A stretch of 64,000 nt of DNA from Escherichia phage EC148. The notes under the pieces were generated by a model, which saw only the letters and a list, made by a program, of their open reading frames with translations, did not search any database and was not told the DNA's origin. A program made the position numbers and the translations under genes. The stretch lies in sequence record NC_106721.1, one strand, 5' to 3'. Position 1 is the stretch's first letter, and each line of letters begins with the position of its first letter. Of this stretch, positions 27,532 through 58,817 are shown one piece after another.

Positions 27532-27846
27532 TTACAGATCGGGGCGTTCATCTTCGGAATAGCCTGAGCTGATTCCTTCTCCGAATCCTACAAAGCCATC
27601 AAATTCATCATTTGAGATGCCCATAATCATTGCTTCCATTTTCCTAATCTCCGAAATTTTCATGCCTGCTTTACTATTCTTATAATATTTGCGAGGGTTC
27701 CCGCACATCCAACAAGAACAGATGCAAGGAGTAGTAATGATAATACCTAACCGCTTAGGGCTTTCTTCATGTGGAAAGACTGTCCAATACTTCTTGCGGT
27801 TGTTCTTCACACGTTGCCGGTGATGGCGTCTTAATGCTCGATCCAC
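27532..27846 (-). CDS. hypothetical protein
   Basis: 104 aa, basic N-terminus and Cys cluster. Confidence 0.4.
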   Translation of the reverse strand: MDRALRRHHRQRVKNNRKKYWTVFPHEESPKRLGIIITTPCICSCWMCGNPRKYYKNSKAGMKISEIRKMEAMIMGISNDEFDGFVGFGEGISSGYSEDERPDL

Positions 27847-27927
27847 ACATTTCTCCTAAAACTTGGGAGATAAACGGAGTTTGCTCGACTACCTCACGTA
27901 GTTCGGAGAAATCGTACCCAAACCCCA

Positions 27928-28296
27928 TTACATCGCCTGAGTAAATGTACGACTAATAACGTCGTTCTGTTGTTCACGAGTCAGTGCGTTAAATCGAACA
28001 GCGTAGCCAGAGACACGGATGGTCAACTGAGGATATTTTTCAGGATGTTTCTGCGCATCCAAAAGCTGATCACAGCTTAACACATTGACATTTAGGTGCT
28101 GACCACCTTCGATTTGAGGGGCGACTTCCACTTTGACTTCACGGAAGGCTTCGGGATCGAATTGTGGTGTGATACCTTCTAGATCTTCAACTAGAACTTT
28201 CTGTTTAAGTTCACCGTTGTCGGAGTATAGCTGAATAATCTGATTTTCATGAACAAGGTTAATTACGCCAGATTTAAGATTTTGATATGCTTTCAT
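27928..28296 (-). CDS. grcA: autonomous glycyl-radical cofactor (GrcA/YfiD-like)
   Basis: 122 aa; C-terminal [10 protein letters not shown] ... [24 protein letters not shown] ... RTF matches the GrcA / PFL C-terminal glycyl-radical signature (RVSGY). Confidence 0.75.
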
Positions 28297-28338
28297 TAGA
28301 TCTCCCCGATGTTAGAATTTGGCTCAGCTATTTATTCT

Positions 28339-28533
28339 TTATACTTTTCCATAGTATACGGAAACTGTCTTACCAGTTTGGTTCATGACATATGCTACTT
28401 CATCTTCTTTTAAAAAGATGGCTTGGTCTACTCCAACTATAGCCAATCTTTTATTTCTAGGATTAAAGCTTACACTTTTGCCTGTATGAATCTGTTCCCC
28501 ATTCTTGGCTGACATTATTTTAATTGTTAACAT
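28339..28533 (-). CDS. hypothetical protein
   Basis: 64 aa ORF. Confidence 0.35.
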   Translation of the reverse strand: MLTIKIMSAKNGEQIHTGKSVSFNPRNKRLAIVGVDQAIFLKEDEVAYVMNQTGKTVSVYYGKV

Positions 28534-49948: not shown

Positions 49949-52384
49949 TTAAATAGTACAACCGCCTGATGCACAACCAGCTGCTTCTTCTCCAGCACCA
50001 CCACCATTTGCGGTGTTGAAGTTAGCATAATACCAAGTTTTCCACCCGTATTTAACAGCAGTCATGAAATCACGAACTACTACTGGGCCAGGAATAATTT
50101 CATTCTCAAACTTGGTGTAGTCGTAGTACATATTAGTACTAACAGACTGGCTGAAGAATTTCTGCATAGTTGCTACCCATTTGATCCACTCGATACGATC
50201 TACATCATAAGCCAATTTATAGCTCATTAACGTTTCCCAATCGGTTGCACCTGGAGCAATTGCAATTACTTTATTTACTGCACTACCCTTGATAGATACA
50301 ATCTTACGAGGTGGTTCGATAGAGTTAGTAACACCTAACAGAACAGAAGAACTTTCTCCCGGCATCTGAGCAGTCAGAACAGAGTTACGCATACCATATT
50401 TCAGAATATCTGCACGCAGAGACTCCCAGTCCATTTCTAGACCTACGGATACCAGCTCATCAACAGTTTTCTTGTACGTGTCGATTACCAGAATTCCTTT
50501 AGATGGTTTAGTACGATCAAACCACTCACATGCACCCTGTTCCTTAGCCAGGCGTACAGAGGCTTTATGCAGGAAGTAAGACAGTTTTTCAGCCTCACGG
50601 TGGATCCAGTTACGAGCTTCAATACCTTCGTAAGCCAGACCTTCTGCTGCCATTGCACCTGCTGCGTTCATTAGGCCAATACCGACATTACGACGTTTCT
50701 TAGCCGTATATTCCATAGTTGGGAACGGATAATCCTGAATTTCAATAATTGTATCAACGAATTTCAGAAGGATGTAGCAAGTTTTTTCCCACTCAGCCAG
50801 AGATTCCATGCGTCCAAGTACAACACCACCTAAGTTACACAGAGATACTTCACCAATATCCTCCGGCTTCATTTGATCAAGCTGCTCTTTTGTCTTGTAC
50901 AGCTCTGTAATGTGATGGAACGGGCGTGTAGGCTGAGTAATTTCAACACAAAGGTTTGTCATACGGATCGGATCAAGGAAGTTACCGTGACGATTAGATT
51001 CCCCAATGTGGTGAGCATACATACGTCCTGTTTCCATTCGGATACGTAGCCAAGTATCTAGGATTTCTTTTGCAGAGACTTTAGGAGCTGCAGGAACTGT
51101 TTTTCCTTCGTGGTCGATCTTTGTAAGAGATGCCACACGTTTCTCCGCTGCCACGTAGATTTCTTCAAATTTAGCCTCGTCATCACTATAAAACGCTTCA
51201 TGAACTTCTGGAGCATAGAAGTATGACATTAGCGTAATATCTTCGTTTTTAAGATAACGTTTTAACAAAAGATTGTTAAAGCTCAGAGAATAATCCATCT
51301 TATCGATTTTATTCTCATCTGTAGCACGTTGTTGCTTAACCTGCATCAATTGAATGATTTCAGGGTCGAAGTATGGATAAGACACTGTAGCAGAACCACC
51401 ACGAGTTTGCTGAGTATTGGCCTTTACTGAGCGGTCAATGTGTCGATAATACGGCAGTTTTCCGGAATGCGGGAATGCCCCATTTCGCACCGGATCAGCA
51501 ATTGATCGGCTTTCAAGATGATACCCGATTCCCGCTCTGGCTGCGACCATTTTGAAGACGATGTGCTCGGCGGTGTCGATTGAATCCAACGTGTCAGTGG
51601 AATCCACGAGACAGCAACTAGCAAATCCACGGTCACTAGAGCGCAGACCAACCAGTGGCGGCGTAGGAACGTTGATTTTGTGGAGCGACATTGCGTTGTA
51701 GAGGTCGATTGCATCTAGAATTGTCCAGTTAGGTTGAGATAACATCGCCATTGCCATACCCATGTAGGCGAATTGCGGGGTTTCATAAATTTCACCAGTG
51801 GCTATATTACGACGGGAATACTTATCAAAGAACTGCTTCAGCCCACCACTAGTAAAAAGACGGTCACGATCATGGTCGATAACCTGATTCAGAGCTTCAA
51901 ATTGCTCATCGGTAATCCATGCACTCATGTCTTCCCATGCACCTACGCTAACCATGTGGTCATGGAAGAAGCGTAAAGAAGGTGGTTCGAAAGAGTCATA
52001 AAGGCGTTTACGCATTTGCGCAAGACGTAATTCCTTTGCTGGCACATCGTATGCTGGATTATCTTTAATAAGACTTTCAGCAGCTTTAATTAATGCATCC
52101 ATCAGAGTGTCGGAATCTACAACCCCTTTAGGCAGAGTTTTTTGAGCAGCCATAGTAATGGCTGACCAGCTTACATCAACTGTTTTGCAACCATACTCTG
52201 CCCAACCATTGATTTTTTCAGGAGCAAAGTCTTCTACAGTACCGTCACGTTTAATTACTTTTTCAATGCGATGGCTCATTTGGCTTTCCTTTTTATAGTT
52301 ATCAGGATTTAAGGAATATTCTACTTTATTATCGGTCATTAGGCAAATAAAATTTTCTGATAGAAAAGGCCCGAGTATTTTCAT
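49949..52384 (-). CDS. nrdA: ribonucleotide reductase class I large subunit
   Basis: 811 aa (true start probably an internal Met); ATP-cone-like N-terminus, active-site NLCVEI, C-terminal Cys pair. Confidence 0.8.
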   Translation of the reverse strand: MKILGPFLSENFICLMTDNKVEYSLNPDNYKKESQMSHRIEKVIKRDGTVEDFAPEKINGWAEYGCKTVDVSWSAITMAAQKTLPKGVVDSDTLMDALIKAAESLIKDNPAYDVPAKELRLAQMRKRLYDSFEPPSLRFFHDHMVSVGAWEDMSAWITDEQFEALNQVIDHDRDRLFTSGGLKQFFDKYSRRNIATGEIYETPQFAYMGMAMAMLSQPNWTILDAIDLYNAMSLHKINVPTPPLVGLRSSDRGFASCCLVDSTDTLDSIDTAEHIVFKMVAARAGIGYHLESRSIADPVRNGAFPHSGKLPYYRHIDRSVKANTQQTRGGSATVSYPYFDPEIIQLMQVKQQRATDENKIDKMDYSLSFNNLLLKRYLKNEDITLMSYFYAPEVHEAFYSDDEAKFEEIYVAAEKRVASLTKIDHEGKTVPAAPKVSAKEILDTWLRIRMETGRMYAHHIGESNRHGNFLDPIRMTNLCVEITQPTRPFHHITELYKTKEQLDQMKPEDIGEVSLCNLGGVVLGRMESLAEWEKTCYILLKFVDTIIEIQDYPFPTMEYTAKKRRNVGIGLMNAAGAMAAEGLAYEGIEARNWIHREAEKLSYFLHKASVRLAKEQGACEWFDRTKPSKGILVIDTYKKTVDELVSVGLEMDWESLRADILKYGMRNSVLTAQMPGESSSVLLGVTNSIEPPRKIVSIKGSAVNKVIAIAPGATDWETLMSYKLAYDVDRIEWIKWVATMQKFFSQSVSTNMYYDYTKFENEIIPGPVVVRDFMTAVKYGWKTWYYANFNTANGGGAGEEAAGCASGGCTI

Positions 52385-53749: not shown

Positions 53750-55624
53750 ATGAATCGCAATGAAGAACTAAAGTATAAAGAAATGCAGGCGTTAATTAGA
53801 AACTGCAAAGAGATTATCGAAGGGTCAGCAGATGAAGAGCTGCTGTTTAATAATGCCAATAAACCCTCAGAACGTTTCCCTACACAGAGGGATATGCTTG
53901 CAGGTGAATTGAGTAAGTATCTGATTCTAGAAGAAATGCCAATTCAGATTCGAAATGCTCATATGATTGGGGATATTCATTTCCATGATGCTGATTATGC
54001 TGCATTAGGCATGACTAATTGTTGTCTGGTAGCTCTGGAAGATATGTTGAAGAATGGTATGAAGGTTGGTAATGCTGAAATTAGCACTCCAAACTCTATC
54101 ACTACTGCGGCAGCTATTACAGCTCAGATTATCACACAGGTTAGCTCCCATCAGTATGGTGGTACTTCCGTGGATCGCCTTGATGAAGTATTAGCTCCTT
54201 ATGTTCGTAAATCCTATGACAAAAATCATGCGTTTGCAAAACGTTGGACTAAAGATGAGGCCAAAGCATCAGTAATGGCTACGGAGATGACTGAAAAAGA
54301 AGTTTATGATGCCTGTCAGGGTCTAGAATATGAAATCAATACCATGTTCAACTCTAATGGTCAGAGTCCATTTATTACCTTTGGTTTTGGTCTAGGAACT
54401 TCTTGGGAAGCACGTCTAGTACAGAAAGCAATACTGAAAGTACGCATGGATGGCTTAGGTATCAATAAACGTACAGCTATCTTCCCGAAACTGGTATTTG
54501 TACTTCGTGATGGCGTTAACATGAAACCAGGAGATGTTAATTATGACATCAAGAAGTTAGCTATGAAATGTACTGCTGAACGTATGTATCCAGATTATAT
54601 CAGCTATGATAAGGTTGTGGAAGTTACTGGTGACTATAAAGTTTCTATGGGCTGCCGTTCATTCCTAGCTGCTACAGAAGATGGTGAAACTGCCGGTCGT
54701 AATAACTTAGGTGTTGTTTCTGTAAACTTGCCTAGAATTGCTATCGAAGCTGAAGGAAATATTGATCTATTCTTTGATTTGCTTGAGCTACGTGTGGATA
54801 CAGCATTAAAAGCGTTGGAGTGGAGAGTTGATCGCTTAAAATACATTCAAGCTAAAGCTGCACCCATCCTCTATATGTCAGGAGCCTTTGGACTGCGCTT
54901 GGAGCCTGATGAATACGTATTCGATCATTTCTATAACCGTGCTTCTGTATCTCTAGGATATATTGGTTGTCATGAAATGCTACAGTTCATGTTTGGCAAA
55001 GATGTAGACACAATGTCCGAGACCAGCATCAAGTTTGTTCAGCGTGTATTGCAGTACATGCGAGATAGAGTCGATCAGAAGAAGGAAGAAACTAAGTTAG
55101 GTTATAGCCTGTATGCTACACCGTCAGAGTCCCTGTGTGATAGGTTTTGCCGTTTAGATCGTGAATATTTCCCGGAGCATGAAGATATTCTGTCCAAAGG
55201 ATACTACACTAACTCTCACCACCTTGATGTGGAACGTAAAGTTGCTCCCAATGTGAAATTTGATTATGAATCTAACTTTACTCCGATTGCTTCTGGTGGG
55301 TGTATTTCCTATGTAGAACTACCGGATATGAAACGATTCCCAGATGCACTAGAATGGGTTATTAATTATGCTGCTAGTAAAGTTCATTACTTCGGTATTA
55401 ATACTCCAGTGGATTCTTGTGGTAAATGTGGATTCTTAGGTGAAACAATAGCATCCGAAGATGGATTTAAGTGCCCTATCTGTGGTAATCATGACCCCGA
55501 AACTCTTGAAGTAACTCGTCGAGTTTGTGGGTATCTTGGAAATCCAGGTGCTCGTCCATTTAACCCAGGCAAACAGCATGAGGTTATGGGCAGGGTGAAA
55601 CATCAGGATATTCGAGCTAAGTAA
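53750..55624 (+). CDS. nrdD: anaerobic ribonucleoside-triphosphate reductase (class III)
   Basis: 624 aa; C-terminal zinc ribbon CGKCGF ... CPICG and glycyl-radical motif RVCGYLG. Confidence 0.8.
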   Translation: MNRNEELKYKEMQALIRNCKEIIEGSADEELLFNNANKPSERFPTQRDMLAGELSKYLILEEMPIQIRNAHMIGDIHFHDADYAALGMTNCCLVALEDMLKNGMKVGNAEISTPNSITTAAAITAQIITQVSSHQYGGTSVDRLDEVLAPYVRKSYDKNHAFAKRWTKDEAKASVMATEMTEKEVYDACQGLEYEINTMFNSNGQSPFITFGFGLGTSWEARLVQKAILKVRMDGLGINKRTAIFPKLVFVLRDGVNMKPGDVNYDIKKLAMKCTAERMYPDYISYDKVVEVTGDYKVSMGCRSFLAATEDGETAGRNNLGVVSVNLPRIAIEAEGNIDLFFDLLELRVDTALKALEWRVDRLKYIQAKAAPILYMSGAFGLRLEPDEYVFDHFYNRASVSLGYIGCHEMLQFMFGKDVDTMSETSIKFVQRVLQYMRDRVDQKKEETKLGYSLYATPSESLCDRFCRLDREYFPEHEDILSKGYYTNSHHLDVERKVAPNVKFDYESNFTPIASGGCISYVELPDMKRFPDALEWVINYAASKVHYFGINTPVDSCGKCGFLGETIASEDGFKCPICGNHDPETLEVTRRVCGYLGNPGARPFNPGKQHEVMGRVKHQDIRAK

Positions 55625-55723: not shown

Positions 55724-56104
55724 ATGGAATTAAAGCCCTATATAGTTGAATCTACATGTGGTAGTTTCCATCTGGGTGTAGATGATATTGCTGAGGCTGT
55801 CTTTGCTGCCACAGGTGATTACTCGCATATAGAGGGTGTTGGATACCCTACCATTATTGGCGATTGGGTGGGAACAAATCTAGATGTATCGCCTTATAAC
55901 CCATATTGCTTGTTTGATGAAGACAGAGATGAAGTAAAATGTAATCTTGAATTTGTGTATAATAGAGTGTTAAAAGTATACCAACGTAGCCCCAATGGGT
56001 ACGAAGATATTACTTGGAGTATTAAACAGTATCTTAAAGATGTATACTCTAGTTTTTCTGACGAAGACCTAGAAACAGTTGCAGTGGAGTTTAATAATGA
56101 CTAA
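55724..56104 (+). CDS. hypothetical protein
   Basis: 126 aa ORF. Confidence 0.45.
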   Translation: MELKPYIVESTCGSFHLGVDDIAEAVFAATGDYSHIEGVGYPTIIGDWVGTNLDVSPYNPYCLFDEDRDEVKCNLEFVYNRVLKVYQRSPNGYEDITWSIKQYLKDVYSSFSDEDLETVAVEFNND

Positions 56105-56303: not shown

Positions 56304-56493
56304 GGGTTTAAACTCCGCTTTGGAAAATGCATTAATGCAGCAGTGGGAAACTGGCTATAAGGATGGTGTTGAATCCTGCGCTACTATGCTAGAAGTTATT
56401 GCTAATACCTTAATGGAGAAAGGCAATAAAGAATTAGCTGAGCTATTAGACAGTATTGGGCAAAACTTCAGAGAACAGGTGAAAAATGCGTAG
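56272..56493 (+). CDS. hypothetical protein
   Basis: 73 aa ORF. Confidence 0.4.
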   Translation: MAFSKPILPDKGLNSALENALMQQWETGYKDGVESCATMLEVIANTLMEKGNKELAELLDSIGQNFREQVKNA

Positions 56494-57322
56494 ATTAATT
56501 ATTATTAGTGGTGCGGGTTTGAGTGTTGAAAGTGGTGTACGAGCCTTCCGTACTGATACTGCTAGTGGTAAAGCATTGTGGGATGACTATGATCTAGAAG
56601 AAGTATGTAATATTCATGCCTTTCGTGGTAATTTTTATCATAAAACCCATATGTTTTACAACAAGCGTCGTGAAGAGCTAAAAACTGTTGAACCCAATCT
56701 TGCGCATTTGCGTATTGGTGAATGGTATAAACAATATCCAGGTCAAGTAGTAAACTTGACTACCAACGTTGATGACCTTATTGAGCGTGCTGGCGTTCCA
56801 CATAGTGACATTCTGCATATTCACGGATATTTAAAAGAGGTTGTTGTAGCTGATAGCTACAATAGTAGCAATAAACGGATTATTGATGTAGGATACAATT
56901 CTATTGATCCAGATGATTATAAATGGGTTAAACCTAATGTAATCTTCTTTGGAGAGCATGCTCCTGCATACGCAGAAATGTATAATGTTTTTGACGGTAT
57001 TACCAGTCAAGATATGATCATTGTGGTTGGTTGCTCTAACCAAGTAATTAACTTCTACTGGGAATTATTTCCTGTTCTTAATAGGACTGCTGCGAAATTT
57101 ATGGTAGTTAACTACTATGATAGTGCCCTCGCGGCGGAACCGGGCTATCAAGGTATGACTCGTAGTGAGATGTACCAGCTGGAAGAACGTGGTGTCCCTT
57201 ACTGGAGTAAAGGTGCGGTAGATGCTTTTAGTGATCCTGATTTTATTGCTCGTGTAGAAGCTCATTTAGAGGGTAGACCTTATGTGTCGAGAAGCAAGGG
57301 AAACAGATATGTCCATAGTTAA
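56486..57322 (+). CDS. Sir2-family (sirtuin-like) NAD-dependent enzyme lacking the zinc-ribbon module
   Basis: 278 aa; GAGLSVESGVRAFR, TTNVDDLIERAG, HIHG, VIFFGE match sirtuin NAD-binding motifs; no CxxC pairs. Confidence 0.6.
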   Translation: MRRLIIISGAGLSVESGVRAFRTDTASGKALWDDYDLEEVCNIHAFRGNFYHKTHMFYNKRREELKTVEPNLAHLRIGEWYKQYPGQVVNLTTNVDDLIERAGVPHSDILHIHGYLKEVVVADSYNSSNKRIIDVGYNSIDPDDYKWVKPNVIFFGEHAPAYAEMYNVFDGITSQDMIIVVGCSNQVINFYWELFPVLNRTAAKFMVVNYYDSALAAEPGYQGMTRSEMYQLEERGVPYWSKGAVDAFSDPDFIARVEAHLEGRPYVSRSKGNRYVHS

Positions 57323-57491
57323 ATCTGTGTATACACACCCCGATGATATATTTGTATGGGCGGATGGTAGTTGGTGCTATCGCTGTGAGCTGTGGGAGAT
57401 GGACTATAAATCCGATGACTATGGTGTTATATATGTTGATACGGTTGAGTATGATACGTTCTTAGAAAGGAACAAAAATGGAAATAAGTAA
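57282..57491 (+). CDS. hypothetical protein
   Basis: 69 aa ORF. Confidence 0.35.
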   Translation: MCREARETDMSIVKSVYTHPDDIFVWADGSWCYRCELWEMDYKSDDYGVIYVDTVEYDTFLERNKNGNK

Positions 57492-57984
57492 TACTCCAAT
57501 TATTTTTCTAGATATTGATGGGGTGCTCAATTCGAGCATCTCCCACCATCATGCACCTGATGACGAAAAGATTTTCTTTGGAAGTGATTGGGTTTTCAAA
57601 CCGCTTCTCAAGGCTTTTCAGGACTTTATTCGTCCTTCTCCGATAATGATTGTTGGAGTATCCTCATGGTTCTCTGTCAGGAATGAGATGGAGAACGTTC
57701 AGATTATGACCGGATTAGGTCTTATCGATCGTTTTCTTGGTACAACGGATTTTACTGGGGGTGGATTATCTAGGGGTAATTCTGTTCTTCGCTTCGTTGA
57801 AAAGCATAAGCTCAAACATTGGTGTGTTCTGGATGACGCTGGTGCTATGATGTACCAGTATCCAACGGTTATAGTCAACGGTAGAACTGGAATAAATCTT
57901 CAAGATTTAATGGCTGTTAGCTATATGCTAGAATTTAGTCCAGATCTTGAAATGTGTAAAGCCCTACAACAATTTAAGGTGTAA
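57478..57984 (+). CDS. HAD-superfamily phosphatase
   Basis: 168 aa; motif I FLDIDGVLN. Confidence 0.5.
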   Translation: MEISNTPIIFLDIDGVLNSSISHHHAPDDEKIFFGSDWVFKPLLKAFQDFIRPSPIMIVGVSSWFSVRNEMENVQIMTGLGLIDRFLGTTDFTGGGLSRGNSVLRFVEKHKLKHWCVLDDAGAMMYQYPTVIVNGRTGINLQDLMAVSYMLEFSPDLEMCKALQQFKV

Positions 57985-57986
57985 AT

Positions 57987-58415
57987 ATGTTCAATAATGT
58001 ATTCTCTAAAGAAGCTAACCCAATTTTGGTTAACTTTTGGCGTACTCTACCGGCTAGCCTGTATAATGAGGCTATTAACTCCTTGAAAATATGGTGTGAG
58101 AATAACGAAATCTCCTTTGCTTTTAAAGATGATATTGATGAGGCCCCCTGTATTGGTTTAATTGTGCAGGTAGAGGATGGTCTTGAAGAGATTGTGGGCT
58201 GGAAAGAGTTAGACGAAATGGGCTTAGTTTTTGCGTTAAATTATAAGCTGTTTATGCCTGCTAAGCATCGCCTTGTTGTTAACTATAAAACTAGTGAATC
58301 TCCTGGTTTTCAGGTTAATGAACGTTATGGTTGGTCTTACTCACCGGAAGAAGTAAATGAGGGGATTCAGAAACTTCGACGTTTCGGGTATATGATCCCA
58401 GGTTTAACTGCTTAA
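57987..58415 (+). CDS. hypothetical protein (paralog A)
   Basis: 142 aa; shares a domain with the next gene (C-x-G-[LV] ... W-x-ELD ... MGL[VI]-x-ALN ... P-GL). Confidence 0.45.
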   Translation: MFNNVFSKEANPILVNFWRTLPASLYNEAINSLKIWCENNEISFAFKDDIDEAPCIGLIVQVEDGLEEIVGWKELDEMGLVFALNYKLFMPAKHRLVVNYKTSESPGFQVNERYGWSYSPEEVNEGIQKLRRFGYMIPGLTA

Positions 58416-58424
58416 GGAGGCAGA

Positions 58425-58817
58425 ATGGAACAAGTATATTGGCGTCAGATTGATCCTAGTTTGGTGAAACGTGCGGAGAAGCTGCTACAACGTTGGTTGG
58501 GGGTAAGACAAGCCTCCTTCACTTTTCCGGAGCAGCAAATAGATGATCCCTGTGTTGGTGTTTTCCTATCCGGCTACGCGGGGGAATGGGAGTTGGATTG
58601 GAATGAGTTGTCTGCTATGGGTTTAATTGTTGCCCTAAATTTCTCTTTGTTCCACCCACGTGGTTTGGCCATATGTCGTGTGTCGGATGATGGTTGTTCG
58701 CCCCATCTTTTACAGGTGGAAGATGATATTTGGGAGTACACTCCAGATATTCTCAAAGAAGCTAAAGAACAATTAAACCGTGTTGGGATTTATGTTCCAG
58801 GCTTAAATGATGAATGA
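58425..58817 (+). CDS. hypothetical protein (paralog B)
   Basis: 130 aa tandem paralog of 57987..58415. Confidence 0.45.
   Translation: MEQVYWRQIDPSLVKRAEKLLQRWLGVRQASFTFPEQQIDDPCVGVFLSGYAGEWELDWNELSAMGLIVALNFSLFHPRGLAICRVSDDGCSPHLLQVEDDIWEYTPDILKEAKEQLNRVGIYVPGLNDE

What the first reader, a model, noticed from the sequence alone, without database searches (positions are those of the whole stretch)
27928..28296. GrcA-like glycyl-radical spare-part protein encoded with a class III RNR elsewhere in the window
The ORF carries the full glycyl-radical C-terminal signature of GrcA/YfiD. Together with NrdD (53750-55624) it gives the phage two glycyl-radical components, while no NrdG-like activase (CxxxCxxC radical-SAM) was seen in this window. 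This suggests reliance on the host activase and a possible role in keeping anaerobic metabolism running during infection.
Basis: partly seen in the sequence, partly recalled or inferred. Interest (0 to 1): 0.4.

Follow-up and report, generated by a model that had tools for sequence, protein, structure and literature searches.

The report
T5-type phage GrcA spare-part protein
This T5-like phage carries a small, well-conserved copy of the bacterial "spare part" protein GrcA that repairs oxygen-damaged pyruvate formate-lyase; the gene is real, but it is already annotated in sister phages and its T4 counterpart was characterised in 2001, so it is ordinary.

Summary
[quoted passage not shown] It matches E. 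coli GrcA (PDB 6owr) at E 1.6e-29. Its last 62 residues are 77% identical to the C-terminus of E. coli PflB. The RVSGYAV loop is intact, with the radical glycine at G97.

The window is a Tequintavirus, 99.5% identical to phage T5_ev212, where this gene is already named "putative GrcA". It is T5.056 in T5. It is 52% identical to T4 Vs.6/Y06I, one of the only two spare-part proteins validated biochemically. About 1,580 phage records carry a homologue, and dN/dS among T5-like alleles is 0.055.

NrdD at 53750-55624 is confirmed and keeps its catalytic and glycyl-radical residues. No NrdG- or PflA-like activase exists in the window or in the rest of the near-identical genome. Counts across phage records suggest this holds for enterobacterial T5-like phages generally, and nrdD-only phages were already noted in 2013.

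The phage therefore probably depends on two host activases: PflA for GrcA and NrdG for NrdD. In other phage lineages grcA sits inside the nrdD-nrdG operon, which hints that it safeguards formate, the reductant of this RNR type.

Verdict: already known, low interest.

The parts
27928..28296 (-). grcA-like gene (T5.056 orthologue), 122 aa. The N-terminal ~55 aa form the recognition region. Residues ~56-122 form the glycyl-radical domain.
28006..28008 (-). Codon GGC for the predicted radical glycine G97 within RVSGYAV (equivalent to GrcA G102 and PflB G734).
   Evidence: sequence; alignments
28302..28305 (-). GGAG Shine-Dalgarno, 5 nt upstream of the grcA ATG.
   Evidence: read directly
53750..55624 (+). 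nrdD, class III (anaerobic) ribonucleotide reductase, 624 aa, with no ATP-cone. It keeps C91, M300, C302, the Zn site C557/C560/C575/C578 and the radical glycine G594 (RVCGYLG).
49949..52384 (-). nrdA (class Ia RNR large subunit), context for the nrdD-phoH-nrdAB cluster. nrdB lies further left in the T5_ev212 annotation.

Best explanation

Proposed mechanism, by homology. In an infected cell under anoxic or micro-oxic conditions, host pyruvate formate-lyase (PflB) that has been hit by O2 is cleaved at G734 and loses its radical domain. The phage protein binds the damaged enzyme, using its N-terminal half for recognition. Host PflA (PFL-AE, radical SAM) installs a radical on G97. The phage C-terminal domain then takes the place of PflB residues ~693-759 and restores pyruvate + CoA -> acetyl-CoA + formate.

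Why a phage would want this (inference). T5 destroys host DNA early, so the host cannot resynthesise PflB or its own GrcA. A phage-made spare part would keep fermentative ATP and acetyl-CoA supply going. It would also keep formate supply going, and formate is the reductant of E. coli/T4-type class III RNR, which this phage also encodes.

The phage encodes no activase, so GrcA would depend on host PflA and NrdD on host NrdG.

Shown here: homology, intact motifs, purifying selection, absence of any activase gene. Inferred: activation by host enzymes, rescue of PFL, physiological benefit.
For: Sequence: GrcA (6owr) E 1.6e-29 and PflB C-terminus E 6e-26. It shares 48/62 identities with the PflB C-terminus and 47/62 with GrcA. 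The Gly loop RVSGYAV is invariant across 20 phage and 14 bacterial homologues.

Full-length family match: phrog_1209 at E 1e-46, and 52% identity over the full length to T4 Vs.6/Y06I. Y06I and YfiD are the only validated spare parts; both receive their radical from PFL-AE and rescue O2-cleaved PFL (PMC8683613).

The N-terminal halves alone are homologous to bacterial GrcA N-termini (hhalign 92.8%, E 4e-7). That region of YfiD is needed for cPFL binding and radical installation (PMC8683613).

The AF2 model's C-terminal half matches the YfiD NMR structure and PFL.

dN/dS is 0.055 overall, 0.097 for the N-terminal half and 0.011 for the C-terminal half, across 29 T5-like alleles.

Activase specificity follows the Gly-loop sequence (PMC13450708, section 2.5). 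No activase is found in the whole near-identical genome.

The T5 NrdD radical domain is closer to E. coli NrdD (41/64 identical; 24/30 around the glycine) than T4 NrdD is (31/64; 18/30). T4 carries its own NrdG.

Operon evidence: grcA is embedded in nrdD/nrdG operons in Aeromonas phage Ah1 and in ~350-kb phage contigs.
Against: There is no experiment on any T5-type protein; open-access literature searches for T5.056 or a T5-like PFL gene found nothing.

The NCBIfam GrcA equivalog score is 120 bits, below its cutoff of 170, and that match covers only residues 50-122.

The N-terminal half is diverged, carries a T5-specific insertion, and is predicted to be a beta-sheet, whereas YfiD 1-60 is disordered. 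Recognition could therefore differ.

In T5 and T4 the gene is about 25 kb and 17 kb from nrdD, so the formate link has no local genomic support in this window.

Co-occurrence of grcA and nrdD across phages was judged only from counts by host-genus name, not genome by genome.
Confidence: 0.75

Rival explanations
1. The main selective benefit is dNTP supply. Phage GrcA exists to keep PFL making formate, the obligatory reductant of the phage's NrdD1-type class III RNR, rather than to sustain energy metabolism in general.
For: E. coli and T4 NrdD are the formate-type NrdD1 enzymes (PMC4493059; Mulliez 1995, cited in PMC13450708). T5 NrdD is 54% and 49% identical to them and keeps the MGCRSFL finger loop and C91. 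grcA lies between nrdD and nrdG in three jumbo-phage contigs, and directly after nrdG in Ah1 and L074. Every phage group seen with grcA (T5-like, T4-like, ~350-kb jumbo, Aeromonas) also shows NrdD hits.
Against: grcA is not linked to nrdD in T5 or T4. Many nrdD phages lack grcA (Vibrio Demerecviridae, Felixounavirus, ICP1). Operon embedding is seen in only 4 of 79 IMG/VR loci plus Ah1. No genome-by-genome co-occurrence test was done.
Confidence: 0.35
2. The protein is a decoy or inhibitor. By mimicking the PFL radical domain it sequesters host PflA or occupies PflB, redirecting pyruvate flux rather than repairing PFL.
For: The phage-specific N-terminal half is diverged from bacterial GrcA and predicted to be folded. 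Phages often encode mimics.
Against: The radical glycine and the whole Gly loop are invariant across phage homologues, and the C-terminal half has dN/dS 0.011; a decoy would not need a catalytically competent loop. The T4 homologue restores PFL activity in vitro (PMC8683613).
Confidence: 0.07
3. It is a spare part or radical donor for another glycyl-radical enzyme: host TdcE, or the phage's own NrdD, compensating for the missing NrdG.
For: T5-like phages lack NrdG but have GrcA. Reviews note that spare parts for other GREs are conceivable (PMC8683613, PMC13450708). Some records label the gene '2-ketobutyrate formate-lyase'.
Against: The domain is PFL-type (RVSGYAV; 77% identical to PflB) and unlike the NrdD C-terminus (RVCGYLG plus a Zn ribbon). 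T5 NrdD keeps its own radical glycine and Zn site. T4 has NrdG and still keeps Vs.6. TdcE rescue is possible but would be the same mechanism.
Confidence: 0.05
4. It is a non-functional captured fragment of host pflB or grcA.
For: The C-terminal part is 75-77% identical at DNA level to E. coli grcA and pflB.
Against: Purifying selection is strong in both halves. The ORF is intact, with a good RBS, in hundreds of T5-like genomes and about 1,580 phage records. The phage-specific N-terminal half is conserved between T5 and T4 lineages.
Confidence: 0.02

Closest known systems
T4 Vs.6 / Y06I (autonomous glycyl radical cofactor of phage T4; Wagner et al. 2001, as cited in PMC8683613)
   Same: Same size (120 vs 122 aa) and the same MKAYQ start. 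It is 52% identical over the full length, has an identical Gly loop and belongs to the same PHROG family. Both are standalone early-region genes not adjacent to nrdD.
   Different: The T4 C-terminal 185 nt are 97.8% identical to E. coli grcA DNA (59/62 aa), implying recent exchange with the host. The T5-type C-terminus is an older, separate lineage, 47-48/62 identical to GrcA, PflB and Vs.6 alike, and ends in TFTQAM like PflB. T5-like proteins have a 6-residue insertion in the N-terminal half. T4 encodes its own NrdG; T5-likes do not.
E. coli GrcA/YfiD (PDB 6owr; TIGR04365)
   Same: Two-part architecture with the glycyl-radical domain in the C-terminal half. It is 73% identical over 74 aa, G102 corresponds to G97, and the N-terminal halves are detectably homologous.
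   Different: It scores below the NCBIfam equivalog cutoff (120 vs 170 bits). The N-terminal half is only ~25% identical. AF2 predicts a beta-sheet there (pLDDT 75-79), whereas YfiD 1-60 is disordered by NMR (PMC8683613).
C-terminal glycyl-radical domain of pyruvate formate-lyase PflB (residues 699-760 of the translated gene)
   Same: 77% identical with no gaps, and the fold matches 2pfl.
   Different: It lacks the ~690-residue catalytic barrel, so it cannot be an enzyme on its own. GenBank labels such as 'pyruvate formate-lyase', 'acetyltransferase-related' or 'ribonucleotide reductase subunit' are misnomers.
Phage nrdD-only class III RNR arrangement (Dwivedi et al. 2013, PMC3653736)
   Same: nrdD, phoH and nrdAB are clustered and there is no nrdG, exactly as described for T5, SPC35 and EPS7.
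   Different: Nothing material. This work adds that Vibrio-infecting Demerecviridae (phage Cody) do keep nrdG.

Membership tests
GrcA/YfiD autonomous glycyl radical cofactor | Small standalone protein (~120-130 aa) rather than the C-terminus of a full-length GRE | tested here: met
   122-aa ORF with its own RBS and stop. No PflB-like barrel lies upstream; the upstream neighbour is a 64-aa ORF followed by tRNA-Met.
GrcA/YfiD autonomous glycyl radical cofactor | C-terminal domain homologous to PFL residues ~693-759 with an RVSGYAV Gly loop and the radical glycine | tested here: met
   Pfam Gly_radical E 4e-17. PflB C-terminus 77% identical. G97 aligns with G102 of GrcA and G734 of PflB. Foldseek hits 6owr and 2pfl.
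GrcA/YfiD autonomous glycyl radical cofactor | N-terminal ~60-residue region homologous to that of YfiD (needed for cPFL binding and activation) | tested here: met
   hhalign of the N-terminal columns only, phage profile against bacterial GrcA profile: probability 92.8%, E 3.9e-7, 52 columns. Similarity is weak (25% identity).
GrcA/YfiD autonomous glycyl radical cofactor | Score above the curated NCBIfam equivalog cutoff (TIGR04365, 170 bits) | tested here: not met
   120.2 bits, match limited to residues 50-122. It is therefore a diverged phage subfamily, not a strict equivalog of bacterial GrcA.
GrcA/YfiD autonomous glycyl radical cofactor | Glycyl radical installed by PFL-AE (PflA), and restoration of activity to O2-cleaved PFL | not testable with these tools
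   Biochemical property. It has been shown only for E. coli YfiD and T4 Y06I (PMC8683613).
Phage Vs.6/Y06I family (phrog_1209) | Full-length match to the phage family profile and to T4 Vs.6 | tested here: met
   phrog_1209 E 1.3e-46 over residues 1-122. 52% identity to T4 Vs.6 over the full length.
Class III RNR system (NrdD + NrdG) | NrdD with thiyl Cys, reductive-half Cys, finger-loop Met, Zn-Cys4 and C-terminal RVCGYLG glycine | tested here: met
   C302, C91, M300, C557/C560/C575/C578 and G594 align with E. coli C384, C175, M382, C644/C647/C662/C665 and G681.
Class III RNR system (NrdD + NrdG) | Cognate radical-SAM activase NrdG encoded by the same genome | tested here: not met
   No hit better than E 0.26 to T4 NrdG, E. 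coli NrdG or PflA in 1,031 ORFs of the window plus the rest of T5_ev212, and no CxxxCxxC in a plausible ORF. NrdD is found in 2,907 phage records against NrdG in 2,280. The deficit is close to the 545 records with NrdD >=60% identical to this one, i.e. T5-like.

The most novel reading that the evidence does not exclude
Phage GrcA is a dedicated accessory of anaerobic nucleotide reduction. By keeping host PFL alive it guarantees formate for the phage's formate-dependent NrdD. On this reading, enterobacterial T5-like phages run a complete anaerobic dNTP pathway using two borrowed host radical-SAM activases (PflA and NrdG) after destroying the host chromosome. The embedding of grcA inside nrdD-nrdG operons in at least two other phage lineages would be the genomic trace of this coupling.
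Probability: 0.3. Interest if true: 0.45.

Novelty: already known. Interest (0 to 1): 0.2.

Why it matters
The finding has little value as a discovery. The gene family, its phage members and the nrdD-only arrangement are all on record.

It has some value as a pointer. Only two spare-part proteins have ever been tested, and the T5-type protein is a separate, strongly conserved lineage with a distinct N-terminal half. It could help explain what that enigmatic region does.

The pairing of grcA with an activase-less nrdD gives a clean genetic system: T5 deletions combined with host pflA, pflB, nrdG and grcA mutants. That system could test whether phages depend on pre-existing host radical-SAM activases, and whether PFL-derived formate limits anaerobic phage DNA synthesis in the gut.

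Tried and rejected
1. An activase hidden in the window. The only sizeable ORF with a CxxxCxxC string is 27532-27846(-), the orthologue of T5.055 (104 aa, CICSCWMC). I rejected it as an activase: it has no Pfam hit, phmmer against NrdG and PflA gives E > 5, it is too short for a radical-SAM fold, and it belongs to phrog_4499 of unknown function.

2. The 126-aa ORF just after nrdD (55724-56104). It has no Pfam hit, matches phrog_11748 of unknown function, has three scattered Cys and is not an activase.

3. A conserved grcA partner gene. The 53-aa ORF overlapping the grcA stop (TAATG) resembles the T4 vs.6/vs.5 layout, but neither it nor T5.055 shows any similarity to T4 Vs.5.

4. A promoter or terminator specific to grcA. 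The consensus scans were no better than shuffles. The T5 reference annotates promoter P11 upstream and a terminator after T5.055.

5. Literature. Searches for T5.056/T5.055, for 'pyruvate formate' with T5-like, and for nrdG with T5-like returned nothing. Wei 2014, Bowman 2019 and the T4 genome review are not held.

It was rerun without that row.

Full report
**What the window is.** A 3-kb stretch around the finding is 99.9% identical to Escherichia phages SUT_E1520, SUT_E520 and T5_ev212. The whole window aligns collinearly with T5_ev212 (LR597659.1, Tequintavirus, Demerecviridae), positions 281-64508. Identity is 99.5% over 59.9 kb and 92-94% over the first 4 kb. The window is therefore the left 60% of a T5-like genome: pre-early genes, the early and tRNA region, the nucleotide-metabolism cluster and the start of the replication genes.

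**The observation.** ORF 27928-28296 on the minus strand encodes 122 aa. A GGAG Shine-Dalgarno lies 5 nt before the ATG.
- It matches Pfam Gly_radical at E 4e-17.
- Among NCBIfam models the best hit is GrcA TIGR04365, at 120 bits over residues 50-122.
- In the PDB it matches E. coli GrcA (6owr) at E 1.6e-29 and the C-terminus of pyruvate formate-lyase at E 6e-26.
- Residues 61-122 are 77% identical to E. coli PflB 699-760 without a gap. Residues 51-122 are 73% identical to GrcA 54-127.
- The Gly loop RVSGYAV is intact. The radical glycine is G97 (codon 28006-28008), aligned with GrcA G102 and PflB G734.

**It is a full-length GrcA homologue of the phage type.**
- The protein matches phrog_1209 over its whole length at E 1e-46.
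- It is 52% identical over the full length to T4 Vs.6. Vs.6 is the protein Y06I that Knappe's group showed, together with E. coli YfiD, to receive a glycyl radical from PFL-AE and to restore activity to oxygen-cleaved PFL. These two are still the only validated spare-part proteins (PMC8683613; PMC13450708).
- A profile of 20 phage homologues aligns with a profile of 14 bacterial GrcA proteins from end to end.
- When only the columns before EGGQHLN are compared, the N-terminal halves are still detectably homologous: hhalign probability 92.8%, E 3.9e-7. This matters because YfiD residues 1-60, though disordered, are needed for binding cleaved PFL and for efficient radical installation (PMC8683613).
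- An AlphaFold2 model (mean pLDDT 72) gives the expected helix, Gly-loop hairpin and helix in the C-terminal half. Foldseek returns the YfiD NMR structure and PFL as the top hits.
- The N-terminal half is predicted as a small beta-sheet at pLDDT 75-79. That differs from the disordered YfiD N-terminus, but the confidence is only moderate.

**The gene is under selection and widespread.**
- Among 29 distinct T5-like alleles fetched from IMG/VR, the median dN/dS is 0.055: 0.097 for residues 1-60 and 0.011 for residues 61-122.
- tblastn finds a homologue in 1,581 phage records. These are T5-like, T4-like, Aeromonas phages and ~350-kb jumbo phages.
- The T5-type C-terminus is about equally distant from GrcA, PflB and T4 Vs.6 (47-48 of 62 residues; 75-77% at DNA level).
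- By contrast, the last 185 nt of T4 vs.6 are 97.8% identical to E. coli grcA, which indicates recent exchange with the host.

**It is already annotated.** The same gene is called 'putative autonomous glycyl radical cofactor GrcA' in T5_ev212, DT571/2, slur09 and JLBYU40. Elsewhere it is mislabelled 'pyruvate formate-lyase', 'acetyltransferase-related' or 'ribonucleotide reductase subunit'. In the T5 reference it is T5.056, 'putative acetyltransferase-related protein', identified through InterPro IPR001150. It lies between annotated promoter P11 and a terminator after T5.055. I found no open-access paper discussing the T5-type gene.

**The second glycyl-radical protein.** ORF 53750-55624(+) is NrdD: Pfam NRDD E 1e-172.
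- It is 54% identical to E. coli NrdD and about 49% identical to T4 NrdD.
- It lacks the N-terminal ATP-cone, as T4 NrdD does.
- It keeps C91, M300, C302, the Zn-site cysteines and G594 in RVCGYLG.
- E. coli and T4 NrdD belong to the formate-dependent NrdD1 type (PMC4493059). The identical MGCRSFL finger loop suggests the same for this enzyme; this is an inference.

**No activase.**
- No ORF in the window resembles NrdG or PflA. The only sizeable ORF with a CxxxCxxC string is the 104-aa T5.055 orthologue next to grcA, and it has no radical-SAM features.
I therefore reconstructed the complete T5_ev212 genome and searched all 1,031 stop-to-stop ORFs of 40 aa or more. I used T4 NrdG, E. coli NrdG, E. 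coli PflA and a profile built from the three. Nothing scored better than E 0.26.
- At family level, NrdD is found in 2,907 phage records and NrdG in 2,280. The shortfall is close to the 545 records whose NrdD is at least 60% identical to this one. The shortfalls by host-genus name (Salmonella 397 vs 126, Escherichia 1,053 vs 933) match the numbers of T5-like phages.
- Proteus phage Stubb (Novosibvirus) has the same nrdD-phoH-nrdA-nrdB layout with no nrdG nearby.
- Vibrio phage Cody (Demerecviridae, Ermolyevavirinae) does carry nrdG in its RNR cluster.
- Dwivedi et al. 2013 already reported that many phages have only nrdD together with nrdAB, and described T5's phoH-containing cluster.

**How it most likely works.** By homology with Y06I and YfiD, the phage protein binds oxygen-cleaved host PflB. 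Host PflA then installs a radical on G97, and the phage domain supplies the missing radical domain. This restores acetyl-CoA and formate production.

Activase specificity follows the Gly loop: PFL-AE acts on RVSGYAV but not on RVCGYLG (PMC13450708, section 2.5). The phage therefore needs two host activases, PflA for GrcA and NrdG for NrdD. The C-terminal 64 residues of T5 NrdD are 64% identical to E. coli NrdD (80% in the last 30). T4 NrdD, which has its own NrdG, is 48% identical (60% in the last 30). All of this is inference from sequence.

**A lead beyond the finding.**
- In Aeromonas phage Ah1 the gene order is nrdA-nrdB-x-nrdD-nrdG-grcA-nrdC-nrdH, and the grcA start overlaps the nrdG stop.
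- In three ~350-kb IMG/VR contigs grcA lies between nrdD and nrdG. In a 235-kb contig it directly follows nrdG.
- PFL is the main source of formate, and formate is the reductant of NrdD1 enzymes. The simplest reading is that phage GrcA protects the reductant supply of the phage's anaerobic RNR.
- In T5 and T4 the genes are not adjacent, and many nrdD phages lack grcA. I therefore hold this at about 0.3.

**Verdict.** The feature is already known: annotated in near-identical genomes, with a characterised T4 homologue and a published nrdD-only arrangement. Interest is low (0.2).

Noticed in passing
window 27532-27846 (-): A 104-aa Cys-rich ORF (CICSCWMC), orthologous to T5.055 and matching phrog_4499, lies directly downstream of grcA in the same transcription unit. 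It has a GTG start with a GGAG SD. T5_ev212 annotates only a 35-aa piece of it. It formally fits CxxxCxxC but has no radical-SAM similarity; function unknown.
   Followed up: partly
window 27767-27928 (-): A 53-aa ORF (phrog_31464) starts on a TAATG overlap with the grcA stop and overlaps T5.055 by 80 nt. Between the window and T5, the T5.055 frame is invariant in the overlap while this frame changes, so its 3' part is doubtful. It has no similarity to T4 Vs.5, which occupies the same position after vs.6.
   Followed up: partly
L005 6179-6363 (T4 vs.6) vs L008 (E. coli grcA): The last 185 nt of T4 vs.6 are 97.8% identical to E. coli K-12 grcA DNA, while the 5' half is phage-specific. This is an apparent recent gene conversion or recombination between phage and host.
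   Followed up: partly
L013 (Aeromonas phage Ah1) 2367-5384; L044 8039-11082; L074 7679-10351: The grcA homologue is embedded in the class III RNR operon: nrdD-nrdG-grcA in Ah1 and L074, and nrdD-grcA-ORF115-nrdG in the ~350-kb contigs L044-L046.
   Followed up: partly
window 56486-57322 (+) and 57478-57984 (+): A Sir2-family ORF (Pfam SIR2, E 8e-25) and a HAD_SAK_2 domain ORF sit just downstream of nrdD. Two DUF7415 ORFs follow (57987-58817), which T5_ev212 annotates as 'phage exonuclease'.
   Followed up: no
window 28339-28533 (-): A 64-aa ORF (phrog_3909) lies between tRNA-Met and grcA. It is absent from the T5 reference, where tRNA-Met directly precedes T5.056.
   Followed up: no
L011 (Vibrio phage Cody) 3883-9483: This Vibrio-infecting member of Demerecviridae keeps nrdG in an nrdD-x-RNR-RNR-nrdG cluster, unlike the enterobacterial T5-like phages. 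This suggests nrdG was lost, or never acquired, in the latter.
   Followed up: partly
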